A DNA stretch of 64,000 nt from contig JAFGXQ010000045.1 in NCBI GenBank assembly GCA_016936575.1, forward strand, positions 70,664 to 134,663, written 5' to 3'. The DNA comes from Deltaproteobacteria bacterium. GTDB taxonomy: Bacteria > Myxococcota_A > Polyangia > JAAYKL01. Of the stretch, positions 5,938-33,490 are shown piece after piece. The position numbers and the translations under genes were made by a program. Below the pieces are notes generated by a model, which had not been told where the DNA came from, ran no database searches, and saw only the letters and a list, made by a program, of their open reading frames with translations. The number at the start of each line of letters is the position of its first letter. Position 1 is the first letter of the stretch.

Positions 5938-6939
5938 ATGAAACCAGGGGTTCCGATATCAATTTTCTGTCTATTGCTTTGCACACAGCCGACACTGGCT
6001 GATGAACCGGACGATGAGGCATCTGCGGCATTCCAGGAGGGCATTCGGTTGTACGAAGCGGGGGAATACCCTCAATCTGCAACCGCGTTTCGCCGTGCCC
6101 ATTCGCTGAAGGCGAACTGGCGCCTTCTGTACAATATCGGTCAAGCGGAAGCCGCATCGAAGCGACCGGGAATTGCGCTGCAATCGTTTGAAGAATATCT
6201 GACAACGGGCGGCGACGATATACCCGAACAACGACGCGCCGAGGTAATGGAAGAAATTCGACGTTTGCGTGAGCTGGTAGGCGCACTTGAAATTGAAGCG
6301 CCCGAAAGCGCCGTAGTGTATATCGATGATGTCGAACGAGGCACAACGCCGTTGCCCGGATCTATCATGATTTCTGCCGGTGCAACGCACCGGGTTCGCG
6401 TTGTGCATAGCAATAAAGCAATTCTGGATAGGACTGTTCGGCTAAGTGGACGACAAACAAAAACATTACATGTGTCAGAAGATGGGCCAGAAGACGACGC
6501 CGCATCTTCGACAGAAGCCCCCTCCCCTTCTTCTGATACAGAAGCCACAGTGAATGAAGCTGCCGAACCAACCCCTGCGAATCCGTTGCCGAAATCAAAG
6601 CTGAAACCTATCGGAATCGCCATTCTGTCCACCGGCAGCGTGGTGCTTGCAGCGGGTATTGTCACTGGAGGGATAGCGCTTTCGAAGGAAAAGGAACTGA
6701 ACAGCATGTGCAACGGTTCTATCTGCTACGACACAAAGGCTGCCGACACGCTCAATAGCCGCGACAGGTTGGCAGTCGCGACCGATATTCTGATTCCCGT
6801 CGGCGCCGTGCTCGCTACGATAGGAGGTATTTTACTCATTGCGAACGCGAAAAAACAGTCTGAACGGGCTGTGCGAATTCAACCTGCGACCGGTAGCCAT
6901 TTCGCCGGTGTGGCACTGCACGGAGAGTTTTCGCTATGA
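5938..6939 (+). CDS. Signal-peptide protein with TPR-like N-terminus, a PEGA domain and a C-terminal membrane anchor
   Basis: Signal peptide MKPGVPISIFCLLLCTQPTLADE. PEGA-like segment AVVYIDDVERGTTPLPGSIMISAGATHRVRVV. Ser/Pro-rich linker, then a TM helix (IGIAILSTGSVVLAAGIVTGGIAL). Confidence 0.5.
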   Translation: MKPGVPISIFCLLLCTQPTLADEPDDEASAAFQEGIRLYEAGEYPQSATAFRRAHSLKANWRLLYNIGQAEAASKRPGIALQSFEEYLTTGGDDIPEQRRAEVMEEIRRLRELVGALEIEAPESAVVYIDDVERGTTPLPGSIMISAGATHRVRVVHSNKAILDRTVRLSGRQTKTLHVSEDGPEDDAASSTEAPSPSSDTEATVNEAAEPTPANPLPKSKLKPIGIAILSTGSVVLAAGIVTGGIALSKEKELNSMCNGSICYDTKAADTLNSRDRLAVATDILIPVGAVLATIGGILLIANAKKQSERAVRIQPATGSHFAGVALHGEFSL

Positions 6940-7673
6940 TGTTTTCCAAAACAAAAATTGTCTGCCTGATTGTCACCGGATTGCTGTGCGCGTGTCAGGC
7001 AATTCTTGAAAAAGAATACCATATCGTAACCGACTCGGATTCCATTTCGGACACATCGAACGATTCTGACTCCGGGACAGATTCCGAATCAGATCCCGAT
7101 GAGCACGACACCACATCTGACTCTATGGTGGACACGGAAACCGGAAGCGACTCGCTGAGTGCTCCCGGCGAAATAATACTATATGCAACCGACAATGTTC
7201 CCAACTCGCTGGAGGGAAGTCGCAGCGCCGCACGAAGTGTTTGCAGAGATGCTGCCAATGCATTCTTTGGAGAAAATCATACGTATCATATTGAAATGTT
7301 CATTTCCATGTCGGCGGAAGATACAATCGCACTGATGCCGCAAACCTTCGGATTCTCTCATGAGAGTCGAGTAGTGGGACCGAATACGGTAGAGATCGCG
7401 TCTTCGTGGACGGATCTGTTTTCTGGAGATCTGTCAGCCACACTCATGGAGGCGAATGTTACGGGCGGCGAAACCGACACTTATCCGTACTGGTGGAGCG
7501 GCAGCAATTCATCCGGCGGCCTGGCTTCCGCCTGCAGCGGCTGGACCATCACCGACGACACGCAAAATGCCACACTTGGCGCATTGGATTCATATGGCCC
7601 TTCGTGGCTGACGTCAGACACTACCAGTTGCGACGGCTGGTGGCGATTCCTTTGCATCGCCTTTGAGGAATAA
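6936..7673 (+). CDS. Lipoprotein with an acidic D/S/T-rich linker (hypothetical)
   Basis: Start overlaps the upstream stop (ATGA). Signal plus lipobox-like LLCAC, then DSDSISDTSNDSDSGTDSESDPDEHDTTSDS, then a globular domain of unknown function. Confidence 0.5.
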   Translation: MMFSKTKIVCLIVTGLLCACQAILEKEYHIVTDSDSISDTSNDSDSGTDSESDPDEHDTTSDSMVDTETGSDSLSAPGEIILYATDNVPNSLEGSRSAARSVCRDAANAFFGENHTYHIEMFISMSAEDTIALMPQTFGFSHESRVVGPNTVEIASSWTDLFSGDLSATLMEANVTGGETDTYPYWWSGSNSSGGLASACSGWTITDDTQNATLGALDSYGPSWLTSDTTSCDGWWRFLCIAFEE

Positions 7674-7826
7674 CACACCGAAAACACCGGACACCACAGG
7701 TACAGTAGATTATTGCACAATGATCAGAATACCTGATGTTCGGTGACATCAAAACCACAGAGTGATACACTACCCCCTTCAGAATAATTTCCTGTCTCGG
7801 CGTTGCCGGGCAACCGAACGGAATAG

Positions 7827-9023
7827 ATGATGAGGAACAATTTTCTATTACTTATTTTGGCAACAATTTTACTGTGCGGTACCGGATGTGACGACGGAGG
7901 CTCCGATGTGCGCCCCGGAACCGATGGTGACACAGATTCAGATACCGATGGCGATACGGATTCAGATGCGGATTCGGATACGGATGCTGACACGGATAGC
8001 GACACCGACAGTGATACTGACAGTGATGCAGATACCGATGGTGATACCGATGGTGATACCGATAGTGACAGCGATAGTGACAGTGATACCGACGCCGATA
8101 CCGACAGCAACGCCGACCCTGCTTCACTGATCACACCCATTGAACGAAACGGCGCATACGTACTGGAGTTTGAGTACAATGGAAACACATGGCACCTCGA
8201 AGCCCGACCGGACAACGCCGGCCGAATCGTTTCGTTTCAGCTCAATGACGCCGAAATCATCGCCGACAATACCATCGGCGCGTTGTACGGTTCTGACTTT
8301 CTGATCAGCCCTCAATCCAGCTTTGAAAACAGCAACTGGCCGCCGCCGAGCGATATGTACGCCACGCCGTACACCGCAAGTGCCGACGAAGAGAACGGCA
8401 GCATCACGATGCAAAGCGGCAACATCTCGTATGTGGGGGTAGTTTGGTCCATCACCAAAACCTATTCCGTGGACCTCGACGAAAAAGCGATTGTTCTGGA
8501 ATACACCTTTACCAATGAAGGTTCTGCCCCCCAGAGCGGCGCACCGTGGGAAATCACCCGAGTGCGGAGCGGTGGCTTATCGTTCTTCCCCATGGGGAGC
8601 GGTGCCATTACCTCCGGTCCCAGCTGGTTTACCGAATATCCGAACGAAGAATTGAACGGCACGGTTTGGTGCGATCATAGCGAAATTCAATCCTCCGGCG
8701 ACTATAAACTGTTCACCGACGGGTCGGACGGCTGGCTCGCGCACACCGACGGGACGCTGGTATTTGTAAAAACGTTTGACGACATTCCCGACGGATCTGA
8801 AGCACCAGACGAAGGCGAGATTGAACTGTACGGCAACCCCAACTACGAGGAAGTAGAACAGCAGGGCGCGTATGAATCAGTTCCCGCTGGCGAATCCGCT
8901 ACCTGGACAGTGAAATGGTACCTTCGTGACTTGCCGGTCGATGCCTCTGCCTCCGCAGGCGATACCCCCCTGCTCAATTTCGTTGAAGCCATCGCCCTGG
9001 GTGACGGCGGAAACACGTTCTAA
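7827..9023 (+). CDS. Lipoprotein with a (D-T/S-D-G)n linker and a C-terminal domain of unknown function
   Basis: [21 protein letters not shown] lipobox, then about 65 residues of DGDTDSDTD... repeat, then about 300 aa of globular sequence. Confidence 0.55.
7919..8118. repeat. In-frame tandem hexa/dodecanucleotide repeat (GAY-ACN/AGY-GAY-GGY) encoding a (D-T/S-D-G)n linker
   Basis: Visible periodic gataccgat / gacagcgat units. Coding, inside 7827..9023. Confidence 0.7.
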
Positions 9024-9038
9024 GCACACAGCATCCGG

Positions 9039-11987
9039 CTACTGCGAAATGCGTTCCATGGAGCCTACGGGGCCAAGTCCGTCGTTGCCGCCCACAATGT
9101 AGATATGCGAGTTCACGCGAACCGTTCCGTAATAGGATCGAGGAACCACAAAGCCGCCATTAGAGGACATGTAGTTGGTCAGAAATTCGGTACTCGCATC
9201 CGTAATCGGCTCTTCGGTCACGATCTCAAATCGTGTACTGAGAGAACCGAGGGGAGACGGTTCCATATCGACTCCGTCCCCATCAACGCCTTCCTGCTCT
9301 GAATCCACTCCTGGGAACGCGTACAAATACTGATCCACCACGACAGAGCCGCCGGCATAGGTAGTGCGACCATTCGACAAATCCGTATCCTGAACGGTCC
9401 ATTCCCCCAAAGCCGACATATTTACATCGAGAATCGCGGCTTCGATAGTCATCAACCCGCTATTGGGCGCAGGTGACGTGAATGATTCGTCTCCCGCCAC
9501 TGCGAATAGCAGTATCTGGGTGTCTGCCGCCGCCGGCAACGGATCGGGGTTCAGCGGACTGGTTCCCTGAGGCTGCGAAGACGATAGTCCCAAAAACGCC
9601 CGCGGCGTTTGCATTTCTTCAGTGATTGCAGTCGCGTCGCCGAGCGCGCCGTCCGCAAGAACCGAAATGAACTCCACACTGCCGAGATAGTTGTCTGTGC
9701 CGCCGTCTCCCCTCCCCCCTGCAATAATCATATAGCTGCCGGCGTCAGTGACCACAACGGTTCCCGCCGCGCCCTCTCGTGGGGTGGTCAGCGTTGCATC
9801 AAGTGTTTGCCAACGTGACAATGAACCAATTGGCAATGCAGCAACGCCATCGAGGGGAAAGCTCAGTTCATCAACTGCCAACGACCCATCGTCGGTCCAA
9901 CCGGTGTCGGCAACCCCCTCAGCGATCAGGAAGGTGTCTTCCGTCCCGACAATCGCTTCCGCTACCACATTGGTCCGATACACATTATACGTGGCTCCCG
10001 GCACCGGATCCCAAGTAAGCACCACGGTTCCCTGGGTTGCGTCAGTGGTCACCGACGTGCGATATCCAGCGATGGACTCCACTCCATTCACCACACTGGC
10101 GATACGGTACACCCAGATTCCGGCAGCCAGAGTGCCGCCATCAAAGACACTGGCGGAAACGAATCCGGGGGACGGAGCCGTTTCACCGGCATCCTGGTAG
10201 CAAATGAGATCGTCGGAGCCGCTCTCGACAGATGCAATCCAACGCGTGGTTCCCGGCCGCCCGTCTCCGGCGATAGAACGATATACATTGTAACTTGTCG
10301 CTTCCGGCAACCCGTCAAAACAAATTTCCACCGTTCCAGAGGTATTCAAAATCTGTACTTCATTGGAAGCCAACCCTTCTCCGAACGCACCAACGGCAGA
10401 AATCCTATAGTACCAGGTGCCATAAGGTAAATCTCCATCGCTTACCCGCGTCGGAGCAGAAACATCAACCATCGTATCGGATCCCAAAATCGTCGCTGTT
10501 TCAATGCTGTCCAATGCAACGTTATCGGCATCGAGGACGATGCTGGTATCCGTCGCGTTTCCCCCAAACGCATACAATCGATCTTTCAAACGCAGCAATA
10601 CGTGGCCGCTTCGAGGAGTATTCAATGCATTCTCCACTCGCGGTGTATCGGAATCCTGCCATTGCAGCAATGTTCGCCATTCCCCTACTTCGCCGTAAAT
10701 ATTCACCGCGGCGACTTCTGCGTTGCCAAGCACCTCATTGTCTGCATTGAGTCCACCGACAACATACATATGGGTACCGCTCCGCATGTCAAAACCGAAT
10801 GCGGTCCCGTGTCGCTCCCGTGCAGTCGCCAGCGTAGAATCCGGGGCATCGAAATTGCCTGTGAAATGACCGTCTGTGGGGCTCTTTGCTTCAAACGCAT
10901 AAAACGTATCGGATTGCCCATCGGGGTTCACCACTTTCACTGGATACAGCCCCAGCTCCACCGTGTCGGCGGGTATTGAAGTTACCAGCTCGGTGTCTGT
11001 GGCAGTGGTCACCTCCAGGGCGATTTCACCATCCGCGGTCAATAGAGAAACCGTCGCATCCACACTGAAGTACTGCCCCAATACCGTAAACGGTGTACAA
11101 TCTTCATTAAAAGGATGCTGCACAGGATCGATCGCTGAAATCTGGGGTGGAGATACATCCGTCACTTCAAATATGCCGGGTTCTTCGGTATCGGACACCA
11201 ACCATTGCCCGGCCAGCTCATCAGGATTACTTACCCACACATAATAAGCGCCGACCGAAATCTGCGCCGACTCGGATGGAATCGATGCAATGAGGGTGTT
11301 TTCATCGATGAAATTCACTTCAGACGCCAAATACGACACATCGGGGTTCTCCACACTGACCAACGTCACCCACGGGGTATTGACAAAATGTTCGCCGCTG
11401 ATCTGAATCGTTTTATCCGATAAGACATCATCATCCGTTGTGCCCACCCAGGCCAGTGCAGGCTCCACATTGGTTACTATCGGCGGCGGCAGTATTGAAA
11501 TGGAAAGCACCCCATCAAGCGTCGCAAAGGTACCGTCCGCCAACGTAACGGTCACATCATACAGTCCTTGAACTGCGGTCACTTCGGAACCGAAAAGTAC
11601 TGTTGCGGCTTCGCCCGTCTCTATCGATGCCGCACCCAGCGCCACAATCTGATCTCCGAGAGATATCGAAACGGTCATTCCCTCTTCAAATCCCGTACCC
11701 TGTATTGTTAACAACTGCTCCGTCCCCACGCTGATCGCACCCGGAAGAACACTGACCACCGTCAGTAACGCACTGGTATCGCCATTGATACTGTCTGAAT
11801 CCGTATCATCACTGCTATCGGTGCCTTCTGATTCCGTCGCCACTGAGGTGTCATTGATACTGGTATCGGGAGTGGTATCAGAACCGGTATCCCCATCATC
11901 TGATGATTTTTTATCATCTTCGGAGCATCCGAAAACCCACATCATCGAAACAATCAAGACCGCGATTTGTACACCTGATTTTATCAT
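9039..11987 (-). CDS. Large secreted lipoprotein with Kelch-type beta-propeller repeats and IPT/TIG-like Ig domains
   Basis: Kelch-like h-Y-V-x-GG motifs (HMYVVGGLNADN, YMIIAGGRGDGG, HIYIVGGNDG). IPT/TIG-like segments (LTIQGTGFEEGMTVSISLGD...). Acidic S/T/D tract after a lipobox (VFGCSEDD). Start moved to the internal Met (MIKSGVQIAVLIVSMMWVFGC); the ORF may start at 12095. Confidence 0.5.
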   Translation of the reverse strand: MIKSGVQIAVLIVSMMWVFGCSEDDKKSSDDGDTGSDTTPDTSINDTSVATESEGTDSSDDTDSDSINGDTSALLTVVSVLPGAISVGTEQLLTIQGTGFEEGMTVSISLGDQIVALGAASIETGEAATVLFGSEVTAVQGLYDVTVTLADGTFATLDGVLSISILPPPIVTNVEPALAWVGTTDDDVLSDKTIQISGEHFVNTPWVTLVSVENPDVSYLASEVNFIDENTLIASIPSESAQISVGAYYVWVSNPDELAGQWLVSDTEEPGIFEVTDVSPPQISAIDPVQHPFNEDCTPFTVLGQYFSVDATVSLLTADGEIALEVTTATDTELVTSIPADTVELGLYPVKVVNPDGQSDTFYAFEAKSPTDGHFTGNFDAPDSTLATARERHGTAFGFDMRSGTHMYVVGGLNADNEVLGNAEVAAVNIYGEVGEWRTLLQWQDSDTPRVENALNTPRSGHVLLRLKDRLYAFGGNATDTSIVLDADNVALDSIETATILGSDTMVDVSAPTRVSDGDLPYGTWYYRISAVGAFGEGLASNEVQILNTSGTVEICFDGLPEATSYNVYRSIAGDGRPGTTRWIASVESGSDDLICYQDAGETAPSPGFVSASVFDGGTLAAGIWVYRIASVVNGVESIAGYRTSVTTDATQGTVVLTWDPVPGATYNVYRTNVVAEAIVGTEDTFLIAEGVADTGWTDDGSLAVDELSFPLDGVAALPIGSLSRWQTLDATLTTPREGAAGTVVVTDAGSYMIIAGGRGDGGTDNYLGSVEFISVLADGALGDATAITEEMQTPRAFLGLSSSQPQGTSPLNPDPLPAAADTQILLFAVAGDESFTSPAPNSGLMTIEAAILDVNMSALGEWTVQDTDLSNGRTTYAGGSVVVDQYLYAFPGVDSEQEGVDGDGVDMEPSPLGSLSTRFEIVTEEPITDASTEFLTNYMSSNGGFVVPRSYYGTVRVNSHIYIVGGNDGLGPVGSMERISQ

Positions 11988-12174: not shown

Positions 12175-13188
12175 CTATTCTGCGACAGTTACCGGCTGGC
12201 AGCAACCGCTCACGCAATAAAAGCCGGCATCACATGGAGATACATCTGAAACAGTGCACGGTTCAATTCCCGTCGGACATTGATCATCCGGCGTACCATC
12301 GGAATCGTCGCCGTCACCGTAACAGTCCGCAGGCAATTCCGGCTTACCAATGCATATTTCGCAATAGCCGCACTCGTTCAGGCAATTCGCTACGGGCGTG
12401 CATCTCGGGCATTTGCTTTCATCCAAAATATCGGCAAACGTGCACGTTCCAATATTGTCGGCGTCTTTCGCGCCAATCCAAACATAGGCATCGTCACCGT
12501 CGGTCCCCAACCCTTCGAGTTCCGGGAAGGTGCAACACCCGAAGCAGTCACAACCGTTCGGCGTGAACGGTACACAGACATCGGTGCACAATTGGGTTTG
12601 TTCATCCGGGCAAAACTGGGGATTTCCAATTAACGTTTCATTATATTCGCAAACAGCGCCTTCCGGCTCCAGGGGATCACATTCGTGACTCCACCAACAA
12701 TCATCGCTGCCGGTGCCCATGCCGTTTCCATAGTCAAAATAGCAGTCCACATGGCACGTTGATCCGGTTACGCCGCCCACATCCGAGATCAATGCAGGCC
12801 CTTCAGTATTGTCGCACGGCCCCAGGCATTCCGGATCGCGCCAATCGGTCATCCCGTCACTGTCATTATCTTTGCAATCGCCACATTCCAGCAGCCGTCC
12901 GTCACATTGGGTTTCGTAGCACACAAACTGCTTGCCATCGCCGTCCACCAGCAGCTCTCCCCCCTCACCCACCACTACCGTTGAATCCGTACCGTCCTGC
13001 CATCCTTCATCCGTCCCCTGAACCGACGTGTCGTCCTCATCCATACCTGTTCCGGTGGCAGAATCCTGGCGGTGGGTGGTGTCGGTGTCGAGCACTGCAT
13101 TCGCCGAACTGACGTCATCACCGCACCCTAAATTGCTTACAGCCCATACCCCGCACAAAAACAAGCACACTCGTCGTACAGTGAACAT
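12175..13188 (-). CDS. Cysteine-rich secreted lipoprotein with Asp-rich putative Ca-binding motifs
   Basis: Signal plus lipobox (AVSNLGCGDD), about 40 Cys in 337 aa, and DNDSDGMTD / DGDDSDGTPDD motifs resembling thrombospondin type-3-like Ca-binding loops. Confidence 0.5.
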   Translation of the reverse strand: MFTVRRVCLFLCGVWAVSNLGCGDDVSSANAVLDTDTTHRQDSATGTGMDEDDTSVQGTDEGWQDGTDSTVVVGEGGELLVDGDGKQFVCYETQCDGRLLECGDCKDNDSDGMTDWRDPECLGPCDNTEGPALISDVGGVTGSTCHVDCYFDYGNGMGTGSDDCWWSHECDPLEPEGAVCEYNETLIGNPQFCPDEQTQLCTDVCVPFTPNGCDCFGCCTFPELEGLGTDGDDAYVWIGAKDADNIGTCTFADILDESKCPRCTPVANCLNECGYCEICIGKPELPADCYGDGDDSDGTPDDQCPTGIEPCTVSDVSPCDAGFYCVSGCCQPVTVAE

Positions 13189-16108: not shown

Positions 16109-16141
16109 GCGGGTTCCTTTATCGTTCAGCAAATCCGCGAC

Positions 16142-17308: not shown

Positions 17309-17347
17309 TTTCGTCTCCTTTATCGAAGCGCGCAGAGCGCTGCTTGA

Positions 17348-18766: not shown

Positions 18767-18787
18767 TTAAAATTCGTTTTGCCTCTA

Positions 18788-21484: not shown

Positions 21485-21519
21485 TCTCCTTTTTATAAAA
21501 GCACTTTAAAACAAGTGGT

Positions 21520-23841: not shown

Positions 23842-23854
23842 TTTATTCTCTTCC

Positions 23855-25402: not shown

Positions 25403-25403
25403 G

Positions 25404-26873
25404 TCAGAACCTGTACGATAATGCGAGCGATGAAAAGTGATAACTGCTCACATATACTCCGCTATTCGCTGTGGCTGAGGGCTGTTCAGGATAGTGGGCA
25501 TCGCAATTGTTGTTATCGGTATACGGCGCCTCACAAAAGCTTCCCGGAACTTGTTGATAAATCTGTCCGTTACTTTCGCTCATTGAAAATGGAATTTCAT
25601 ATACATAGGTGTATGACAGGGACACATCAAATCTTCCCAATATCAATGTTGTGCCCGCGCTCGCACCGAGTCGATGGGTGGCGGGAAAATCCACATAGGC
25701 AAAATTCTTTCTACTCGCTGCTGTTTCATAGAATGTACCTGCACGTATAATAAGACGATTGTCTATCACGTTCATGTCACCCCCAAACCGCACACTGAAC
25801 GTGTTTTTCCAGTGTTTCGGTATGACAATCTCTCCGACTTCAACACTGACCCCCATGACATCAGCGTACAGTCCCTTGCCGTCGATGATGTATTCATCCA
25901 TCTGGGACCAGAACTCATAGCGAACATCAAGTTCCAAGTCGTACAGATCTCTCTTTCCGCGCAAATGAATGTATCTCGCACCTGCCCGCAGCTCCATCGG
26001 AAGGGTCATTGCAAACGTCACGTTGTTATCAGGATTGTCGTTTCTGCTGAGCTCCGGCGCTTCTTCAAGAGAAAGAAACACTGGTGTGAGCGAAAGCTCG
26101 CTGTCCGCGTGTAGATAAGTAGGAATCAGCCGTCCGGAAAACGCCAGTTGAAAAGAAGGCATTGGATGCACCCAGAATCCGAGAATTGCCGAAATCCCGG
26201 TATGGTCTGCGCCTTTCACAGTAGCCGCCATATCAAACAGGCTGGAAACCGGGCTGACCTGCCCGGGAGTCGTATCTCCGTTCACAATTAATTGCAATTC
26301 CAACTGTGCCAAATCCACCCACTGCAGACTGACCCCCACACCGAACACATCCTTGTACCGCCATGCCGCACTGAGGCTGTAATACAGAATTTTTGTATCC
26401 CGCCGTGTCAACATATAGCGCTGACCACCGTCTTGCGAAAATTCCTGCGTGGAAATACCGGCCGGTGCGTAGGTTCCCAACGCAAACGCCCAGCTCTGAA
26501 GGCCGAAATCCGTCGATACGACAATCATCGGCCCGAGCAACTGCCAAGTGTGCTCGTTATTCACAGTGTCAAATGTTACGTAGTCGGGAATACCCTCGCC
26601 GGCCTCGCTCCAGTCCAGTAAAGGCGCACGCCTGAATTGTTCATGCGCGTAACCGAACCGATTACTCAGATATAGTTGCGTGCCGTGTAGAGATGTCAAT
26701 CCCGCGGGGTTATATTCAATGGCGGTGGCATCATCAGCTTTAGCAACAAAGGCACCACCTCGACCAGCGGCCACCGCGCCCTGATCTCCCACCGATATTC
26801 CAGCAGACAACACATCATTCGAAAACATGACGATGATTCCCCCCAACGCGCATAGAACAATAAAAAAAGCCAT
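25404..26873 (-). CDS. FadL/OmpP1/TodX-family outer-membrane hydrophobic-compound channel
   Basis: Signal peptide (MAFFIVLCALGG...), N-terminal ...ADDATAIEYNPAGLT (NPA-type hatch motif of FadL), and a long beta-rich body ending ...LSYRF. Start moved to the internal Met to remove overlap with the upstream gene. Confidence 0.5.
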   Translation of the reverse strand: MAFFIVLCALGGIIVMFSNDVLSAGISVGDQGAVAAGRGGAFVAKADDATAIEYNPAGLTSLHGTQLYLSNRFGYAHEQFRRAPLLDWSEAGEGIPDYVTFDTVNNEHTWQLLGPMIVVSTDFGLQSWAFALGTYAPAGISTQEFSQDGGQRYMLTRRDTKILYYSLSAAWRYKDVFGVGVSLQWVDLAQLELQLIVNGDTTPGQVSPVSSLFDMAATVKGADHTGISAILGFWVHPMPSFQLAFSGRLIPTYLHADSELSLTPVFLSLEEAPELSRNDNPDNNVTFAMTLPMELRAGARYIHLRGKRDLYDLELDVRYEFWSQMDEYIIDGKGLYADVMGVSVEVGEIVIPKHWKNTFSVRFGGDMNVIDNRLIIRAGTFYETAASRKNFAYVDFPATHRLGASAGTTLILGRFDVSLSYTYVYEIPFSMSESNGQIYQQVPGSFCEAPYTDNNNCDAHYPEQPSATANSGVYVSSYHFSSLALSYRF

Positions 26874-26922
26874 CTGAAACTGTCGATGCGGCCGATAGAA
26901 CACAGTCACCCCTTTGCCTCTC

Positions 26923-27918
26923 CTATACCCCTGTACAATCCGCTGACATGGTGTTTCTGAACAACGAAGTAACATCTTCAGCTTCAAAGAAAGCCGATAG
27001 TCGATAACCGATTCGCCCATCCGCTGTCACACAGCTGGGTACGATTTCAGCTGCATCCATAATTCCGCGAAAGGTCGCCCAGTTTCCATTTTGCCCACAG
27101 GCGCTGGCGCAATAGCCCGAAATCGCTTCCACTGAAAACGATTCAAACGGATCTTCCGGCGGTGTCGGAAAACCGGTTTCCGGTAAAGCGCCGTCTTTAC
27201 TGCACAATCCGGCCTTGATACACATACAAATTTGATTGACCGACTCCTGCGGCAGGCACCCTTCAAGATGCCCCGACGAAATCTGACTACAGTTTTCATT
27301 AAAACCGAACGTAACATGCAGATCATGAATCGGCGTGCTGTTCGCGGGAGACAACAACGGCGCACACATCAGAGGATCAGTCTGCGGCCCCAAATGAAAA
27401 TATAACGTCTGTGCCTCGGTGTTTCTGAATCTGCACTGATAACCGTTTGACGGAATGACATCAACGCCGATATTCAACGATTCATCCATAAAACAATACG
27501 ACTCAATCGTCGAAAAATCATCGTTTGAATATCCGGTAGAAGGCGTGCGCCAGGCCGGGCCCACACTCAATTGCAGCCTGGAGAAGGCCGCGAGTTCGTC
27601 GTCATCGGCTTCTGCAATGTCAACCACGAACAGCACATTCAGCAGGTAATTCGAAATCTCGTATTCCCACATGCTGTCGAGTGTCACGTTCAGCCTGGCC
27701 GGTTGGTCAACGGTTAAACGGGTAAATCGATAGGCCCGGCCTGTCACGTCCTCGGGCGTGCAGTTGCACTGAGTATTCTCCCCTGTCGCATCGCCTTGGA
27801 TAAAGACATCCGGAGCCGGCGGCTCAATAATGTCCACACAAGCAACAACGGTCATCATCGCAACGGCCAATGTAGTTGTCAGCCTATACGCCTGCGACGT
27901 TCTCACCGCTCTCTTCAT
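26923..27918 (-). CDS. Hypothetical secreted lipoprotein (Cys-containing)
   Basis: Internal start MKRAVRTSQAYRLTTTLAVAMMTVVAC (signal plus lipobox). No recognisable domain. Confidence 0.35.
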   Translation of the reverse strand: MKRAVRTSQAYRLTTTLAVAMMTVVACVDIIEPPAPDVFIQGDATGENTQCNCTPEDVTGRAYRFTRLTVDQPARLNVTLDSMWEYEISNYLLNVLFVVDIAEADDDELAAFSRLQLSVGPAWRTPSTGYSNDDFSTIESYCFMDESLNIGVDVIPSNGYQCRFRNTEAQTLYFHLGPQTDPLMCAPLLSPANSTPIHDLHVTFGFNENCSQISSGHLEGCLPQESVNQICMCIKAGLCSKDGALPETGFPTPPEDPFESFSVEAISGYCASACGQNGNWATFRGIMDAAEIVPSCVTADGRIGYRLSAFFEAEDVTSLFRNTMSADCTGV

Positions 27919-27955
27919 GTGAAATACATGCTTACAGATTCGCACAAGGGTCATC

Positions 27956-28756
27956 CTATTCTGCGCACTCCGCACTTGCTGCTACGACTTCTGTCAACTG
28001 AAGACCTGAAACGACCTGACCAGTTACATTACTTGCGGTAAGATGCATGCAGAACAACTCGCCGTCATGTTCGCATTCTTCACATGCAAATCCCATCGTC
28101 GGCGCAGTGTTGCAAATCTTTTCAGGCGTGGGGTCTGTAAACATGATTGTAAACAGTTCGTAAATATCTCTGAAATCAACTGTGGCTTTGAGGGTACCAT
28201 CGATAAATGCATCTCCTCCGTTCACCAGAGACCCTGAAATACTCAAATCATGAATGGTTGCTACTTCGAAGGCACCATTTCCTTCAATAACGGTTTCCAG
28301 ATTTGTCGGACCAATCAGAAAATCGGGATTGTCCGCAATCGTGCCGCTGCACGAGGCCGTGGCACTACACATATCCTGCACACCGTCATTCATCGTTCCC
28401 ATCGAAGTCGTCAGCGCGGATTGAGCGATTTCTACAACGGTAAAGGCAAATATCGGAACATATCCGCCCAACTCCGCCCCCACACCGGACGGTGTCCAGT
28501 TTGCAGCCGGAATTTCATCCAGGGCATAGGTATTCGCCAAAATAACACTAACGTCTTCCAGGGGCGTTGCATCTAAAGTTTCGCTGGGGGTATCTGATTC
28601 CGAATCCACATCGGTTCCGCTGTCAGATGCAGTGTCACTATCGTTCGTGTCGATATTATCAGAATCATCGGCCTCATCCCCGGTTTTGTCGCCACAACTC
28701 AGCAGTAGCAGACAAAACAACCCTACCAATCCGGACAATTTCAATTGCGTTTCCAT
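27956..28756 (-). CDS. Lipoprotein with an acidic D/S/T linker (hypothetical)
   Basis: LLLLSCGDKTGDEADDSDNIDTNDSDTASDSGTDVDSESDTPSE, then a 200-aa domain with six Cys. Confidence 0.5.
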   Translation of the reverse strand: METQLKLSGLVGLFCLLLLSCGDKTGDEADDSDNIDTNDSDTASDSGTDVDSESDTPSETLDATPLEDVSVILANTYALDEIPAANWTPSGVGAELGGYVPIFAFTVVEIAQSALTTSMGTMNDGVQDMCSATASCSGTIADNPDFLIGPTNLETVIEGNGAFEVATIHDLSISGSLVNGGDAFIDGTLKATVDFRDIYELFTIMFTDPTPEKICNTAPTMGFACEECEHDGELFCMHLTASNVTGQVVSGLQLTEVVAASAECAE

Positions 28757-28789
28757 GTTACTTTTTCCTCCATTTGTTCTTCGCCGGTT

Positions 28790-29812
28790 CTATACCCAGA
28801 TGCCTGCCACTGTGGCCATTGTGAACCCCGACGCGGCACTTCCCAGCATGAGTTTTTCATCCTTTTGCGGTTCTCTTTGAGAAAGCAGATAATCAAACAC
28901 CACACCAATCGTGGCGCTGGCGTTATTTCCGTACAAGTGATGCGTGTATACTCCCCTATCCAATTCTGCACCGATTTTCGACAGAACCTTCCGCGTCATG
29001 AATTCGCTGGGTTGATGAAATAAGTAATGCGCAACCTCGTTGGGATCCCATCCCAATTTCTTCAACACCTCCATCAGACGAGGTGCAATATACTTATGAA
29101 GTTTCATCAGTTCCGTCGATGATGAACTGAATGTGCCGTGAATCGGCACCTGGCAGAGAGACCAGTGGTTAGGCAGAGAATGCGTGTCGGTACTGACAAC
29201 CCGAACACATCCGTTTGACCAGGGATTTTTGCTCACCAGAAAACAAGCTGCTGCGTTTCCGATGGTCAAACCGGCGGCTTTGTACTGCAAATCGGTAAGT
29301 GTTTGAATATCGAACGACAAAAACTCCCGCGAGAGTTCAGCTGTACAAACCAACGCAGTCTCGTAGTCATCGTGCATATTCAGGTACGCACAGGCGACCT
29401 GCACAGCTTCCAAATGTCCCACGCACGCACTGGTTACGTCAAAAGCATGCGTCTGTGTGATGCCAAGATTCGCACACACTTCCATTGCCGTAGCAGGCTC
29501 AAAGTACTCTCTTGCCACCCCACCGAAAATCACCAAATCCACATCGTCCAAAGCAGTGCTGTTTCTCTCGAGGCAGTTAGCAGCTGCCTTTGCCGCATAC
29601 GCCGCGACCCTTGACTCAGGATTGAAATCCAGGTAGCGCACCTGAGTATTACATTTGCTCAAAATCTTTTTGGTTGCCGCTTCAATGGCTGTCCACGCAA
29701 GCTTATTTCCCTTGTAGTTTTGTTTGACCAAATCGATAATCGCAGCATTGTCATATCGTGTATCAGGTACATGAATTCCCGGCTTAGATAAATATAGTTC
29801 TGGCATCGTCAT
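28790..29812 (-). CDS. 3-oxoacyl-ACP synthase III (FabH/KAS III)-like condensing enzyme
   Basis: Thiolase-fold length and layout. Active-site Cys context DVTSACVGHLEA, His in VAHYLFHQPS, Asn in YGNNASATIG (Cys-His-Asn triad order of KAS III). Start placed at MTMPELY. Confidence 0.55.
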   Translation of the reverse strand: MTMPELYLSKPGIHVPDTRYDNAAIIDLVKQNYKGNKLAWTAIEAATKKILSKCNTQVRYLDFNPESRVAAYAAKAAANCLERNSTALDDVDLVIFGGVAREYFEPATAMEVCANLGITQTHAFDVTSACVGHLEAVQVACAYLNMHDDYETALVCTAELSREFLSFDIQTLTDLQYKAAGLTIGNAAACFLVSKNPWSNGCVRVVSTDTHSLPNHWSLCQVPIHGTFSSSSTELMKLHKYIAPRLMEVLKKLGWDPNEVAHYLFHQPSEFMTRKVLSKIGAELDRGVYTHHLYGNNASATIGVVFDYLLSQREPQKDEKLMLGSAASGFTMATVAGIWV

Positions 29813-30023
29813 TGAATTGTTCCTGTATGTGTTTCCAGAAATCGTCCATGCAAGACAGCTCAGCATGTAAAGCCGTCTTAATCGAAGATTTAAACAATGG
29901 TGCGAACGAAGCGAGGAAAGGGGTTGATATAAATGAACCTTTTTTACTTATTCTTTTTACAGAGGAAAATGATTGCAGCTTATTTGAAAAATTTCGTTCA
30001 TCTCAAATCATTTCAACATTCTG

Positions 30024-31103: not shown

Positions 31104-31515
31104 TGTTCGGTTTTTCCTTTTTTAGTTCATCCAACAGAAACAAAATTATCACATCTCTTTAGTGCACTGTTCCGCCGCAACAGGGTTGGCTTTTATTTTG
31201 TAAAATCCGAAAAATATCTTCAGAAGGAGAATATTCGCGTCACCCTCGGTGCGATAGATTCGCAATTCTCGATACAGCGCCTTATTCGACGAACCTGACT
31301 TCATAAAAAAAATAAACACCGTTACCAATTCAGGTTACTCGTCTTGATTCGAATCTATGAGGGCCTGTGCCGAAATGCTGTAGTCGTGTGGGACTAAACT
31401 CGCGTCATTCGCAGGAAGCGCTGCAGCCGACTTGCGTAAAATCAGCGATGACAAAACTCAGGATAGCGAAGAACGTTAAAACCCGAGCTATGGAGACTTG
31501 ATTTCGACGGGCGTT

Positions 31516-33165
31516 CTAAGGTGCCAGAGTGAGTTGGCCTTCATCGAGTGAAATCTGGTAGTAGCCGTGGTCGTCCCAGGCCAGTTTCTGACCATTTTGA
31601 GTAAGTGTTCCGCCATCCACGGTAACACGCAGACATTTTCCGGACGGAAAATTATCGGGCAGGTTCCACGACCAACTATGGCCGTCACCGCTGCTCGACG
31701 GACTCACAGACGAAAATGTTTTTTGTCCAATCCAATATGCCCCCACATTCACCACGCTGTCTATCCATACATCTCCGTATGATTTCATTTCGTTGACACC
31801 CGATACCATAGAACTGATTGGAATCGCGTTATACGCACCGTCTCCATATCCAGTGAACCCGTGCACGCAGTAAACTGCCCATCCGCCTTGATTACGCGCG
31901 TTGTTTGCCGGCACGCCGAACGTATACGCGTCCGCCCCCGCCGCTGGAATATATGACGGCAGATTAAAGGGATTTGAGTTGTCATTCGGCATAATAATAG
32001 CGCCGGCCACACCGCGGTTGATGATATACCGCGTACTTGCGGGAGAAGAACAAACCGTGCTCCCCTCTGGCGCCGCCATCGTATAGATTTCGATGTCCAG
32101 CGCGCTCTCCAGCAACTGCTCCGCGGTGTCAATCGACGAAGTATTACATGTGTGATCAGTGGTGTGATTTCCGATTTCGTGCCCACCGGCAACCGCATCG
32201 TGCCAAATCGATGCATTCTCGTCGTTCCAATTGGTCACAAGGTAGAATGTGTAGTGAACCCCCAGGCCTGAGAGCGTCCCCCATTCCTGAATGGTTGATT
32301 GGGTTCCATCATCGAGAGAATAGCTCACCGCCGCAGAATATCCCGCCCAATTCAACACCTGCAAATTGCCGGCCGCTCCAGAGGGCTTCGCCTGTCCACT
32401 GCTTCCCACATCCGGAAGTCCGCAATCATACACAACCCCCGGGTCTGAATCTGAATCGGAATCAGCATCGGAATCGGCGTCTGTATCGCTATCGCTGTCT
32501 GTATCGCTATCGCTGTCTGTATCGCTATCGCTGTCTGTGTCAGTGTCACTGTCAGTATCGGTATCGCCGTCTGTTGTACCGCCGGCATTGCAGCAAATGG
32601 CGGCCCAACCGTTTTCCGGACTGGGCACACATGGCGTTGCGCCGACAATTTCGCCTCCCAAACCGCCCCAGGTCGGATCACCGGTACACGCCCATTCGCT
32701 CGATACACATTCATACGCGCAGTCAGCATCTGAGTCGGTATCGCCATCGGAATCCGTGTCACTATCTGAATCCGTGTCACTATCCGAATCCGAATCGGCG
32801 TCGGAGTCGGTATCAGTGTCTGTATCTGCATCACTATCTGAATCCGTGTCACTATCCGAGTCTGTATCAGTGTCTGAATCCGTATCGCTGTCCGAGTCGC
32901 TGTCAGCGTCTGAATCTGTATCGCTGTCGGAATCCGTATCGCTATCCGAGTCGCTGTCAGCGTCTGAATCTCCGTCACCATCGGCATCGGCATCACTGTC
33001 TGAATCAGAGTCACCGTCGGAATCCCCGTCGGAATCCCCGTCTCCGTCGGAATCACTGTCGGAGTCCGCATCCGCGTCAGTCAAATCGACCGAAGCATCC
33101 TCTTGTCCGCATGCCATCAAAAACAATTGCGCCCCGAAAATAATAATATACAAATACTTGCTCAT
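31516..33165 (-). CDS. Lipoprotein with two poly(D-S/T/G) tracts and a polysaccharide deacetylase (CE4/NodB-like) domain
   Basis: Lipobox [10 protein letters not shown]. About 120-aa and about 45-aa acidic repeat tracts. CE4 motifs SYSLDDGT (TFDDG-like) and [11 protein letters not shown] (H-x-x-x-x-H metal site). Confidence 0.5.
32442..32574. repeat. In-frame tandem repeat (second acidic tract of the CE4 lipoprotein), including 3 perfect copies of an 18-nt unit at 32481..32534
   Basis: Unit ctgtatcgctatcgctgt is repeated three times exactly. Confidence 0.75.
32712..33075. repeat. ~360-nt in-frame tandem repeat encoding ~120 aa of (D-S/A/G/T)n (first acidic tract of the CE4 lipoprotein)
   Basis: Periodic gtcagcgtctgaatc / gtatcgctgtccgagtc units. 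Confidence 0.7.
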
Positions 33166-33490
33166 ATCGCTCCGTATCCCCATTCAGATTCAAAGGATTA
33201 GTCCGTTCAAAACATACTTTTCGTGCCAACCCATAGGCAACCATCCAAACAGTACCGCCACCATCTACAACGGCTCAAAGGGATTGCGCGCACGCACAAA
33301 ATGACCAGATTTGGACATTGAAGAGAAAAACTGTACACAACACGAAGGCGTGAATTCTCACATTTAAAAGAAGTGAAACTGAGGCCCAACGACAACAGTT
33401 CTGATTTCATTGACCCATGAATACTGACGTTATTATTTGGCATGAAAGTTGAGTAGAAACATCCAAAACTCAAACGCAGGAGCATTTCCT

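What the first reader, a model, noticed from the sequence alone, without database searches (positions are those of the whole stretch)
6936..33183. Lineage-specific family of lipoproteins tethered by poly(Asp-Ser/Thr/Gly) linkers
At least ten unrelated secreted proteins start with signal peptide, lipobox Cys and then an acidic low-complexity tract of 15 to 150 residues (DSD/DTD/DGD units) before the functional domain. They are 6936..7673, 7827..9023, 9039..11987, 12175..13188, 14126..15478, 16142..17308, 17348..18766, 18788..20560, 27956..28756 and 31516..33165. 36110..36661 carries a similar C-terminal tract. The functional domains include CE4, ASST-like, Kelch/IPT and unknown folds. The density is striking. 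It suggests a generic polyanionic spacer that projects lipid-anchored enzymes away from the membrane, binds divalent cations, or is O-glycosylated as Ser-Asp repeats are in Gram-positive Sdr proteins.
Basis: seen in the sequence. Interest (0 to 1): 0.6.

Follow-up and report, generated by a model that had tools for sequence, protein, structure and literature searches.

The report
Polyanionic Asp-repeat leashes on lipoproteins
Ten lipid-anchored secreted proteins of an uncultured anaerobic myxobacterium carry a floppy, highly negative (Asp-x)n leash between the lipid anchor and the enzyme; this is a local variant of the long low-complexity tethers that lipoproteins of the whole class Polyangia carry, and leash length looks tuned for each protein.

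Summary
All ten ORFs have a signal peptide, a lipobox Cys at residue 19-23, an acidic D/S/T/G tract of 29-149 residues, and then a globular part. Four proteins carry near-perfect (Asp-x)n dipeptide repeats. Six carry degenerate acidic tracts.

The window comes from a Zodletone-spring MAG (Myxococcota, class Polyangia). The ten proteins are not a homologous family: they represent nine unrelated domain types that share one architecture.

AlphaFold2 predicts both tracts tested to be disordered. Codon scrambling shows that selection acts on the protein.

Homologues of two of the domain families, and 80 loci from 39 other Polyangia MAGs, show that long low-complexity linkers after the lipobox are the rule in this class. 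About 60% of predicted lipoproteins have one, up to 190 aa. Most are Gly-rich and uncharged. The Asp flavour is a dialect seen in a few lineages.

Spacer length is kept per positional orthologue: 153/150/131/145 aa against 37/33/20 aa. It is bimodal across the ASST-like family, whatever the composition.

The best reading is a disordered spacer or tether. The negative charge probably stiffens it, but other lineages do without it. Cation binding and glycosylation remain untested. This is a new variant of a known kind, of moderate interest.

The parts
6936..7673 (+). Lipoprotein of 245 aa with an unknown globular part. Cys20. Degenerate acidic tract at 7026-7160 (45 aa, net charge -15).
   Evidence: The start overlaps the stop of 5938-6939 (ATGA). 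No Pfam match.
7827..9023 (+). Lipoprotein of 398 aa with a DUF4380-like domain. Cys21. Tract at 7911-8126 (72 aa, net charge -31). Strict (D-x)n run at 7923-8108.
9039..11987 (-). Lipoprotein of 982 aa with IPT/TIG and Kelch repeats. Cys21. Degenerate acidic tract at 11772-11924 (51 aa, net charge -15).
12175..13188 (-). Lipoprotein of 337 aa whose globular part is Cys-rich (32 Cys). Cys22 (NLGC). Acidic tract at 12979-13065 (29 aa, net charge -9).
   Evidence: No Pfam match.
14126..15478 (+). Lipoprotein of 450 aa with an unknown domain. Cys21. Acidic tract rich in T/D/E/S at 14189-14395 (69 aa, net charge -21).
16142..17308 (-). Lipoprotein of 388 aa with an unknown domain, a conserved neighbour of the ASST-like genes. 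Cys23. Tract at 17087-17233 (49 aa, net charge -22). Strict run at 17093-17206. Spacer is 52 aa here, and 52 and 44 aa in the orthologues.
17348..18766 (-). ASST-like lipoprotein 'b' of 472 aa with a short leash. Cys22. Tract at 18584-18688 (35 aa, net charge -9). Spacer is 37 aa.
   Evidence: residues 20-55 have pLDDT below 50; fold matches E. coli ASST
18788..20560 (-). ASST-like lipoprotein 'a' of 590 aa with a long leash. Cys23. Tract at 20021-20467 (149 aa, 72 Asp, net charge -72). Strict run at 20030-20461. Spacer is 153 aa.
   Evidence: residues 23-172 have pLDDT of roughly 37-53 and no secondary structure
27956..28756 (-). Lipoprotein of 266 aa with an unknown domain, part of the conserved cluster. 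Cys21. Degenerate acidic tract at 28565-28693 (43 aa, net charge -15).
31516..33165 (-). CE4 polysaccharide-deacetylase lipoprotein of 549 aa. Cys19. First tract at 32710-33102 (131 aa, net charge -64). A 6-Cys module at 32587-32709. Second, inter-domain tract at 32434-32586 (51 aa, net charge -22). The CE4 domain follows.
15512..29866 (-). Conserved gene cluster that holds five of the lipoproteins, four of them tract-bearing. Gene order: KAS III, 27956-like, 26923-like, FadL-like, DUF1302, MMPL/RND, LolA-like, ASST-a, ASST-b, 16142-like, Chalcone_3-like.
   Evidence: Pfam. The same genes occur in the same order in L003 (JAFGWT) and L004 (JBNKCR), and rearranged in L014 (JBNLED).

Best explanation
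The tracts are intrinsically disordered, polyanionic tethers.

Inferred steps:
- After Sec export and lipidation of Cys+1, the N-terminus is fixed in a membrane.
- That membrane is probably the outer one. None of the ten has Lys at +2, which is the inner-membrane retention signal in M. xanthus.
- The following 30-150 residues cannot fold, because every second residue is Asp and the others are Ser, Thr, Gly or Ala.
- The chain therefore acts as a hydrated, self-repelling leash. It holds the folded enzyme away from the anchoring membrane. It also serves as an inter-domain linker.

Shown here:
- The architecture.
- The disorder predicted by AlphaFold2.
- Protein-level maintenance of the composition.
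- The class-wide presence of equivalent uncharged linkers.
- The conservation of spacer length per orthologue.

Leash length, not sequence, looks like the selected property. The upstream ASST-like gene of the tandem pair (the only one in JBNKCR) keeps a spacer of about 130-150 aa, and the downstream gene a spacer of about 20-40 aa.

The Asp flavour is a lineage dialect. By polyelectrolyte physics it should make the leash more extended and stiffer than the Gly-rich version used by most Polyangia. A disordered linker next to the lipid anchor may also help Lol-dependent extraction, as shown for E. coli.

The tracts change length through duplication and loss among imperfect 6/12/18-nt repeats.
For: Position and architecture. 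A tract follows the lipobox in all ten proteins. A second tract lies between the 6-Cys module and the CE4 domain. The orthologues in JAFGWT and JBNKCR use the same tract on both sides of an inserted 6-Cys module.

Disorder. AlphaFold2 gives pLDDT below 50 for residues 20-55 of the protein at 17348. It gives roughly 37-53 for residues 23-172 of the protein at 18788, with no secondary structure. The domains score above 90.

Protein-level selection:
- Asp GAT/GAC usage is 0.59/0.41 in the tracts and 0.61/0.39 in other genes.
- Ser uses both the AGY and TCN codon boxes.
- There are 8-16 different hexamers per tract for DS/DT.
- TRF matches are only 69-86% for most arrays.
- Asp alternates strictly: 10 DD against 120 DxD.

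Generality in Polyangia:
- In the ASST-like family, 65 of 72 lipobox-bearing homologues have a linker of at least 20 aa. Forty are Gly-rich and eight are Asp-rich.
- In the CE4 family, 46 of 53 have one. Thirty-five are Gly-rich and none is Asp-rich. Cultured Sorangium strains are among them.
- In 80 loci from 39 other Polyangia MAGs, 195 of 315 lipoprotein-like ORFs have such linkers.
- Pooled net charge is -0.05 per residue there and -0.34 here.

Length conservation:
- ASST-a spacers are 153/150/131/145 aa.
- ASST-b spacers are 37/33/20 aa.
- 16142-like spacers are 52/52/44 aa.
- 26923-like spacers are 10/27/14 aa.
- These values hold across genomes whose domains are only 38-58% identical.
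- In 71 ASST-like database homologues, spacer length is bimodal: 24 are below 80 aa, 45 are 100-179 aa and 2 lie between.

Precedent. In E. coli, disordered N-terminal linkers are needed for proper outer-membrane targeting. They can be replaced by GS repeats of adequate length (bioRxiv 10.1101/2021.01.05.425367).
Against: - No localisation, expression or biophysical data exist for this uncultured organism.
- The lipoprotein calls rest on a sequence rule, not on SignalP or LipoP.
- Length conservation has exceptions. The single ASST-like gene of JAFGQN has a 37-aa spacer, although its domain groups with the long-leash genes. The 16142-like spacers are 20 and 13 aa in JBNLED.
- The strict avoidance of Asp-Asp and the exclusion of Lys, Arg and Pro go beyond what a plain spacer needs. 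This may point to an added charge-specific or modification-related role.
- The exact repeat number in the longest tracts rests on one short-read assembly.
- My ORF-based lipoprotein scan of high-GC loci contains some false positives.
Confidence: 0.62

Rival explanations
1. Cation or mineral interaction. The (Asp-x)n tracts bind Ca2+, Mg2+ or Ba2+. They form a polyanionic brush that buffers cations or blocks mineral nucleation on the cell surface in a barite-depositing spring.
For: - Net charge reaches -72 per tract, with every second residue Asp. From my own knowledge, this resembles the (Asp-Y)n motifs of biomineralisation proteins and polyaspartate scale inhibitors.
- The source spring is barite-depositing, with about 0.3 mM Ba (PMC4582958).
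- The globular parts are also very acidic, with pI at or below 4.4. Cytoplasmic proteins in the window are not.
Against: - Other Polyangia MAGs from the same spring (JAFGIS, JAFGPX) use Gly-rich linkers with D at 0.02-0.04. JAFGQN uses only weakly acidic ones.
- Orthologous positions in relatives hold uncharged linkers of the same length class.
- No Pfam calcium-binding repeat was detected, for example TSP_3.
- The DxDxDG matches follow trivially from the repeat.
Confidence: 0.12
2. Scaffold for post-translational modification. The Ser and Thr residues flanked by Asp are O-glycosylated or phosphorylated, as the SD repeats of staphylococcal adhesins are glycosylated by SdgA/SdgB. The modification, not the bare peptide, gives protease resistance or hydration.
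For: - Ser plus Thr make up about 30-40% of the tracts, in a regular D-S/T register.
- SD repeats are glycosylated in S. aureus (PMC3794999).
- Ser/Thr-rich disordered regions of streptococcal membrane proteins are glycosylated (PMC12041528, listed).
Against: - No glycosyltransferase or secreted kinase is encoded in the 64-kb window.
- Many x positions are Gly or Ala, which cannot be modified.
- Relatives use Gly-rich linkers.
- The rest of the genome could not be searched.
Confidence: 0.15
3. Sorting signal. The acidic residues after Cys+1 act like the Bacteroidota lipoprotein export signal and send the proteins to the cell surface.
For: - Five of the ten have two adjacent acidic residues within +2..+6: DDGGS, SEDDK, GDDVS, TTDEG and GQEDA.
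- The LES is a short acidic motif at +2..+6 (PMC5080379).
Against: - The LES depends on position and is 3-5 residues long. The bulk of these tracts starts at +8 to +21 and runs for up to 150 residues.
- Across Polyangia lipoproteins, an acidic pair within +2..+7 is equally frequent with and without a linker, at 17% each.
- The tract is also used between domains, far from the Cys.
Confidence: 0.07
4. Neutral low-complexity drift. Any hydrophilic filler is tolerated after the lipobox. The Asp flavour reflects repeat expansion plus mutational bias (GGY to GAY or AGY in lower-GC genomes), with no adaptive value of its own.
For: - G+D is nearly constant at 0.35-0.38 in three of the four groups compared (0.46 in the two JBNKCR linkers), so Asp replaces Gly about one for one.
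- The strongest Asp dialects are in genomes of 48-51% GC.
- Exact repeats of 42-72 nt show recent duplication.
Against: - JBNLED has 63% GC and still has D at 0.26.
- Strict D-x alternation is not what point mutation of GG-rich linkers would give: DD 10 against DxD 120 here, GG 1133 against GxG 713 in Gly-rich linkers.
- Spacer lengths are kept per orthologue and are bimodal across the family.
- Synonymous scrambling with constant amino-acid composition indicates purifying selection on composition.
Confidence: 0.15
5. Artefact. The tracts are untranslated or misassembled, for example because the true starts lie downstream or the repeats are collapsed or chimeric.
For: - An independent Logan contig ends inside the longest repeat.
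- Reverse-strand frames are also open through the repeats.
- Four of the ten exact sequences were not found in the protein collection.
Against: - All ten show in-frame continuity of signal peptide, lipobox, tract and domain.
- SD-like motifs sit at most of the upstream starts only.
- The gene calls on record for the NCBI record and the Logan contig include the tracts.
- The Logan contig is 100% identical over 12.8 kb covering five tracts.
- Orthologues in four other MAGs show the same architecture.
- The longest exact repeat is 72 nt, shorter than the k=87 suggested by the 'k87' contig names of the sister Zodletone MAGs.
Confidence: 0.03

Closest known systems
Intrinsically disordered N-terminal linkers of E. 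coli outer-membrane lipoproteins such as RcsF (El Rayes et al., bioRxiv 10.1101/2021.01.05.425367). LpoB, Pal and NlpD are further examples from my own knowledge.
   Same: - The linker sits directly after the lipidated Cys.
- It is disordered.
- Length matters rather than sequence. A GS repeat of adequate length substitutes, and shorter ones mislocalise.
   Different: - The linkers here are far longer, up to about 150 aa.
- They are strongly polyanionic, built from dipeptide repeats, and reused between domains.
- Dependence on Lol is untested.
Ser-Asp (SD) dipeptide repeat regions of staphylococcal Clf/Sdr adhesins (PMC3794999)
   Same: - Both are long alternating Asp-Ser dipeptide runs with scrambled synonymous codons.
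- Both lie between the cell anchor and the functional domain and act as a stalk (stalk role from my own knowledge).
   Different: - Sdr proteins are Gram-positive.
- Their repeat lies C-terminal of the ligand domain, next to an LPXTG sortase anchor.
- It is glycosylated by SdgA/SdgB.
- Here the anchor is an N-terminal lipid, x also includes Thr, Gly and Ala, and no glycosyltransferase was found.
Gly/Ser/Thr/Ala-rich tethers of lipoproteins in Sorangium and other Polyangia (documented here; I found no paper describing them)
   Same: - They occupy the same position in the same protein families (CE4, ASST-like).
- They fall in the same length classes.
   Different: - They are nearly uncharged (-0.05 per residue against -0.34).
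- They are rich in Gly-Gly and have no dipeptide register.
Bacteroidota lipoprotein export signal and Sus-like surface lipoproteins (PMC5080379)
   Same: - Acidic residues follow Cys+1.
- Lipid-anchored carbohydrate-active enzymes are involved. A CE4 is found here, and a glycoside-hydrolase-like domain (my reading of the sequence; no Pfam run) on an Asp leash in JBNLED.
   Different: - The LES is a short motif of 3-5 residues fixed at +2..+6.
- No such positional enrichment is seen in Polyangia.
Low-complexity tethers of other lipoproteins: Neisseria AAEAP (H.8) linkers of Laz and Lip, Mycoplasma Vlp/Vsa repeat lipoproteins, and the Asp/Gly-rich stretches after haloarchaeal lipoboxes. All are from my own knowledge and none was tested here.
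   Same: A lipobox is followed by a repetitive low-complexity segment that projects or shields.
   Different: - The compositions differ.
- The Mycoplasma repeats are perfect DNA repeats used for size variation, and those proteins lack enzyme domains.
- None of these is a strict (Asp-x)n repeat.

Membership tests
Bacterial lipoproteins (signal peptidase II substrates, PROSITE PS51257-type) | An N-terminal n-region containing Lys or Arg, an uncharged hydrophobic h-region, and a lipobox [LVI..][ASTVI..][GAS]C with the Cys at about residue 15-35. | tested here: met
   Cys lies at residue 19-23 in all ten. Eight of the ten pass my PS51257-like regular expression. The protein at 7827 passes only with Cys allowed at -4. 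The proteins at 12175 and 18788 fail only at position -4, with N and Q. SignalP and LipoP were not available.
Bacterial lipoproteins (signal peptidase II substrates) | Actual lipidation by Lgt, LspA and Lnt, and membrane anchoring. | not testable with these tools
   The organism is uncultured and no proteomic data were available.
Disordered N-terminal lipoprotein linkers (E. coli RcsF type) | A disordered segment of more than about 20 residues directly after Cys+1. | tested here: met
   Spacers are 37-153 aa in the four proteins measured, and the tracts of all ten are 29-149 aa. AlphaFold2 gives pLDDT below about 53 and no secondary structure over the tracts of two proteins.
Disordered N-terminal lipoprotein linkers (E. 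coli RcsF type) | Length matters rather than sequence. | tested here: met
   Orthologous spacers keep their length class (153/150/131/145 against 37/33/20) while composition and sequence differ. Length is bimodal across 71 homologues. This evidence is comparative, not experimental.
Disordered N-terminal lipoprotein linkers (E. coli RcsF type) | The linker is required for efficient LolCDE-dependent targeting to the outer membrane. | not testable with these tools
   This needs genetics and fractionation.
Staphylococcal SD-repeat (Sdr/Clf) proteins | A long Ser-Asp dipeptide repeat region. | tested here: met
   Strict (D-x)n runs span 38-144 residues, with x mostly Ser or Thr.
Staphylococcal SD-repeat (Sdr/Clf) proteins | A C-terminal LPXTG sortase anchor, with the repeat lying between the ligand-binding domain and the wall anchor. 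| tested here: not met
   The tract is N-terminal, directly after a lipobox. No sequence ends in an LPXTG motif. The organism is a diderm myxobacterium.
Staphylococcal SD-repeat (Sdr/Clf) proteins | Glycosylation of the repeat by dedicated SdgA/SdgB-type glycosyltransferases. | tested here: inconclusive
   No glycosyltransferase was found among the window proteins scanned with Pfam. The rest of the genome could not be reached.
Bacteroidota lipoprotein export signal (LES) | A position-specific motif C-X-K-(D/E)2-X, or S-D-D-D-D, at +2..+6. It is enriched in surface lipoproteins. | tested here: not met
   Only five of the ten have an acidic pair at +2..+6. Across Polyangia loci the acidic pair is equally frequent with and without a linker, at 17% each. 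The tracts extend far beyond +6.
Thrombospondin type 3 / DxDxDG calcium-binding repeats | A match to the TSP_3 profile, or DxDxDG loops within a structured repeat. | tested here: not met
   No TSP_3 or other calcium-binding Pfam hit at E up to 0.01. The DxDxDG strings (3-11 per tract) follow from the dipeptide repeat. AlphaFold2 predicts no structure.
Contingency-type variable repeat lipoproteins (Mycoplasma Vlp/Vsa type) | Near-perfect tandem DNA repeats that allow frequent slippage, and a mature protein made mostly of repeats. | tested here: not met
   TRF matches are 69-86% for most arrays, and the longest exact repeats are 14-72 nt. All ten proteins carry a substantial globular part of 170-910 aa, with a Pfam domain in five.

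The most novel reading that the evidence does not exclude
The (Asp-x)n leashes are more than spacers. Many copies on the cell surface would form a dense polyaspartate-like brush. That brush would bind Ba2+ and Ca2+ or block barite and carbonate nucleation on the envelope of a bacterium living in a barite-depositing, sulfidic spring. Alternatively, the strict D-S/T register could be the recognition code of an undescribed periplasmic O-modification system. In either case the charge pattern itself would be the adaptive trait.
Probability: 0.12. Interest if true: 0.7.

Novelty: new variant of a known kind. Interest (0 to 1): 0.45.

Why it matters
Disordered linkers next to the lipid anchor were only recently shown to matter for lipoprotein sorting, and only in E. 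coli. Polyangia take this feature to an extreme. About 60% of the predicted lipoproteins scanned carry leashes of 20 to 190 residues.

Here the same orthologues carry either uncharged Gly-rich leashes or strongly anionic (Asp-x)n leashes of the same length class. This is a natural experiment that separates the roles of length and charge.

The two conserved length classes (about 20-60 and about 100-160 aa) point to a ruler that sets how far an enzyme sits from the membrane. A tandem pair of ASST-like enzymes with one long and one short leash is seen in three genomes. This could be tested in culturable Sorangium or Myxococcus.

There are also practical consequences:
- The start of one gene is placed inside the signal peptide in the NCBI record.
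- Short-read assemblies break in these tracts.
- Tryptic proteomics will miss the tracts, because they contain almost no Lys or Arg.

Tried and rejected
- Salt-in halophily as the cause of acidity: rejected. Cytoplasmic proteins in the window have ordinary pI values of 5-10.
- A pure DNA microsatellite: rejected, because of scrambled synonymous codons and imperfect repeats.
- Wrong start codons: rejected.
- LES-like sorting motif: no positional enrichment.
- TSP3 or calcium-binding repeat: no Pfam hit.
- GC content as the sole driver of the Asp flavour: rejected by JBNLED, which has 63% GC and D at 0.26.
- Habitat as the sole driver: rejected, because Gly-rich linkers occur in other Zodletone Polyangia.
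- Strain-level length variants: the 90% clusters of the six proteins found in the collection are singletons. The other four exact sequences are not in the collection.
- Right-flank extension: the protein at 62283-63251 is not on record.
- Left-flank extension: 6.7 kb holds no further (Asp-x) protein.
- Pfam at E up to 1 for the unknown domains and the 6-Cys module: nothing significant.
- Literature searches found no description of Asp-rich or Gly-rich lipoprotein tethers in Myxococcota or haloarchaea.
- HMMER's composition correction would probably have erased the signal.

Full report
**Source**

Exact look-ups place the window on contig JAFGTB010000154.1 (277,734 bp) of assembly GCA_016934495.1, labelled 'Deltaproteobacteria bacterium'. 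The accession JAFGTB is one of six Myxococcota MAGs from Zodletone spring, Oklahoma. All six are assigned to class Polyangia, and five of the six to a new order, JAFGXQ01 (bioRxiv 10.1101/2021.07.06.451402). The spring is anoxic, sulfidic and barite-depositing (PMC4582958).

Yes. All ten ORFs are present at the stated coordinates. Each begins with a hydrophobic signal sequence and a lipobox Cys at residue 19-23. An acidic tract of 29-149 residues follows, with net charge -9 to -72, and then a globular part.

There are two grades of tract.
- Four proteins (7827, 16142, 18788, 31516) carry five near-perfect (Asp-x)n runs with x mostly Ser, Thr, Gly or Ala. These are the only such runs in the six-frame translation of the 64 kb. 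None appeared in 100 shuffles.
- The other six carry degenerate D/S/T/E-rich linkers.

Asp alternates strictly. Among 189 Asp in the window linkers there are 10 Asp-Asp pairs and 120 Asp-x-Asp.

It adds a DUF4380-like domain. Five proteins have no family.

Only 17348 and 18788 are related to each other, at 66% identity over 413 aa. The remaining eight are unrelated, so this is a shared architecture and not a family.

About 18 lipoproteins are predicted in the window. Ten have a tract, and all ten lie within 26 kb. The 6.7 kb left of the window adds none.

**Are the tracts translated?**

Several lines of evidence say yes.
- Signal peptide, tract and domain lie in one frame in all ten.
- Most upstream starts have SD-like motifs, and the first downstream candidate starts do not.
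- The start at 6936 overlaps the stop of the preceding gene.
- The gene calls on record for the NCBI record and the Logan contig include the tracts.
- Orthologues elsewhere have the same layout.

An independent Logan assembly is 100% identical over window 7348-20132 but stops inside the longest repeat. The exact repeat count there depends on one assembly. The longest exact repeat is 72 nt.

**Nature of the tracts**

AlphaFold2 with family alignments gives pLDDT below 50 for residues 20-55 of the short-leash ASST-like protein. It gives roughly 37-53 for residues 23-172 of the long-leash one, with no secondary structure. The domains score above 90. The folded part matches E. coli arylsulfate sulfotransferase (Foldseek E about 1e-16).

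At the DNA level the repeats are imperfect, with 69-86% matches for most arrays.
- Asp codon usage equals that of other genes.
- Ser is encoded from both the AGY and TCN boxes.
- Each tract uses 8-16 different hexamers for Asp-Ser and Asp-Thr.

The amino-acid pattern is therefore maintained by selection on the protein. Exact repeats of 42-72 nt show that duplication continues.

The globular parts are themselves very acidic (pI at or below 4.4). Cytoplasmic proteins in the window are ordinary, which rules out salt-in halophily.

**Comparison with relatives**

This comparison is the decisive evidence. Homologues of the ASST-like domain are lipoproteins of Polyangia MAGs.
- Of 72 with a lipobox, 65 have a low-complexity linker of at least 20 aa.
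- Forty are Gly-rich and eight are Asp-rich.

Homologues of the CE4 domain include cultured Sorangium strains. Their sequence reads C-[SG]-DDGGGG..., followed by about 80-100 aa of Gly/Ser/Thr.
- Of 53 with a lipobox, 46 have such a linker.
- Thirty-five are Gly-rich and none is Asp-rich.

In 80 loci from 39 Polyangia MAGs, 195 of 315 lipoprotein-like ORFs have linkers of at least 20 aa. Medians run 30-100 aa and the maximum is 190 aa. Pooled, these linkers hold G at 0.30 and D at 0.04, with a net charge of -0.05 per residue. The window linkers hold D at 0.30 and a net charge of -0.34 per residue.

The Asp dialect recurs in three other MAGs:
- JAFGWT, from the same spring;
- JBNKCR, at 48% GC;
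- the more distant JBNLED, at 63% GC.

Other Zodletone Polyangia (JAFGIS, JAFGPX) use Gly-rich linkers. So a long tether is a trait of the class. The polyanionic flavour is a trait of certain lineages. Neither the protein family, nor GC content alone, nor habitat alone explains it.

**Length is conserved where sequence is not**

Window 15.5-29.9 kb is a conserved gene cluster. Its order is KAS III, two lipoproteins, FadL-like, DUF1302, MMPL/RND, LolA-like, ASST-a, ASST-b, a 16142-like lipoprotein and a Chalcone_3-like protein. JAFGWT and JBNKCR hold it in the same order, and JBNLED holds the same genes rearranged.

Spacer lengths from Cys+1 to the first domain residue, by positional orthologue:

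| Protein | Spacer lengths (aa) |
|---|---|
| ASST-a | 153 / 150 / 131 / 145 |
| ASST-b | 37 / 33 / 20 |
| 16142-like | 52 / 52 / 44 (20 and 13 in JBNLED) |
| 26923-like | 10 / 27 / 14 |

These values hold although the ASST domains are only 38-58% identical between these genomes. In two genomes part of the long spacer is a small 6-Cys module.

The tandem paralogues are more alike within a genome (66% here, 50% in JBNLED) than between genomes. This implies either gene conversion or repeated duplication. The long-then-short order is still kept.

Across 71 lipobox-bearing database homologues, spacer length is bimodal. Twenty-four are below 80 aa, 45 are 100-179 aa and only two fall between. Gly-rich and Asp-rich spacers occur in both classes.

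There are exceptions. The single JAFGQN gene has a 37-aa spacer, although its domain groups with the long-leash genes.

**Mechanism**

My best explanation (confidence about 0.6) is a disordered tether whose length is the selected property. It positions each lipid-anchored enzyme at a set distance from the membrane, and it doubles as an inter-domain linker.

Placement in the outer membrane is inferred only weakly. None of the ten has Lys at +2, the inner-membrane signal in M. xanthus, and one has Ala at +7, the matrix signal (PMC3222651; residues).

The charge should make the chain more expanded and stiffer than a Gly-rich chain. This follows from established polyelectrolyte behaviour of disordered proteins and is an inference here. 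At about 0.35 nm per residue, 150 residues have a contour length of roughly 50 nm. The real reach is shorter.

In E. coli, a disordered linker next to the anchor is needed for normal outer-membrane targeting. GS repeats of adequate length can replace it. The same may apply here.

**Rivals**

- Cation or mineral binding stays open. The (Asp-x)n register and the barium-rich habitat suggest it. Uncharged linkers in orthologues and in neighbouring organisms weaken it.
- Modification of Ser and Thr stays open. It has the precedent of SD repeats. No enzyme for it was found in the window.
- A sorting motif like the LES is not supported.
- Neutral drift is contradicted by the D-x register, by the conservation of length and by JBNLED.
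- Artefact is excluded as far as sequence can show.

**Comparison with known systems**

The closest system by mechanism is the disordered N-terminal linker of E. coli outer-membrane lipoproteins. The closest by sequence is the SD repeat of staphylococcal Sdr/Clf adhesins, whose defining LPXTG context is not met here. Nine literature searches on these topics found no description of Asp-rich or Gly-rich lipoprotein tethers in Myxococcota (for example).

I rate this as a new variant of a known kind. A specialist would not be astonished by low-complexity linkers. The points worth following up are:
- how widespread the tethers are in Polyangia;
- the strict polyanionic dipeptide version;
- the two conserved leash lengths.

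Noticed in passing
window 15512-29866 (minus strand); also L003, L004, L014: A conserved cluster of 11 genes: KAS III, two lipoproteins, FadL-like, DUF1302, MMPL/RND, LolA-like (PF17131), one or two ASST-like lipoproteins, a 16142-like lipoprotein and a Chalcone_3-like protein. A sulfotransferase lies next to it at 30024-31103. It looks like a transport system for a hydrophobic or amphiphilic compound. The DUF1302, DUF1329/LolA-like and RND parts recall AmeABCD of Castellaniella (PMC6394551). Its substrate is unknown.
   Followed up: partly
window 32587-32709 (residues 153-193 of the CE4 protein); L003 ASST-a, L004 ASST, L005:3727-4329 (four tandem copies), L018:1272-5780: A small 6-Cys module (C-x-Y/H-x-C ... 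C ... GG ... C ... CC) flanked by Asp-x tracts moves between unrelated lipoproteins. It has no Pfam match. It may be a binding module.
   Followed up: partly
window 17348-18766 and 18788-20560; L014:8121-11302: The tandem ASST-like paralogues are more similar within a genome (66% here, 50% in JBNLED) than to their positional counterparts in other genomes. This suggests gene conversion or repeated duplication. The long-then-short leash order is kept all the same.
   Followed up: partly
window 17348-18766: The NCBI gene call (P0007, 453 aa) starts at the Met inside the lipobox region (..FWMSC). This removes the signal peptide. The start 19 codons upstream gives a normal lipoprotein precursor.
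   Followed up: yes
window 20021-20467; L002 end: The Logan short-read contig of run SRR13394436 ends inside the longest Asp-x repeat (window position 20132). Such tracts break low-k assemblies, and their repeat counts should be checked with long reads.
   Followed up: yes
window 12175-13188: A lipoprotein with 32 Cys in 267 residues and motifs such as CGDCKDNDSDGMTDWRDPEC. It has no Pfam family. It may be a metal- or calcium-binding Cys-rich repeat of the myxobacterial type.
   Followed up: no
window 36110-36661 and 5938-6939: Acidic S/T/E/D-rich low-complexity segments also occur away from lipoboxes. One is the C-terminal 90 residues of a Cys-rich lipoprotein. Another lies between the TPR-containing N-terminal part and the C-terminal hydrophobic segment of the protein at 5938-6939.
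   Followed up: partly
window 3-1895 (minus strand, cut by the window start): A multihaem cytochrome (c7, c3 and MtrC-like domains) is fused to a cytochrome b561/Ni_hydr_CYTB membrane domain. It may be an electron conduit across the membrane.
   Followed up: no
window 37441-39036: A lipoprotein with two GILT/DsbA-like thioredoxin modules and a basic (not acidic) short linker after the lipobox. It shows that not all lipoproteins of this genome use the Asp dialect.
   Followed up: no
(pooled linkers of all loci): The sum Gly+Asp is 0.35-0.38 in three of the four groups compared (window, JBNLED and the pooled Gly-rich genomes), as if Asp replaced Gly one for one. It is 0.46 in the two JBNKCR linkers. 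GGY and GAY codons differ by one transition. The register differs, however (GG-rich against strict D-x).
   Followed up: partly
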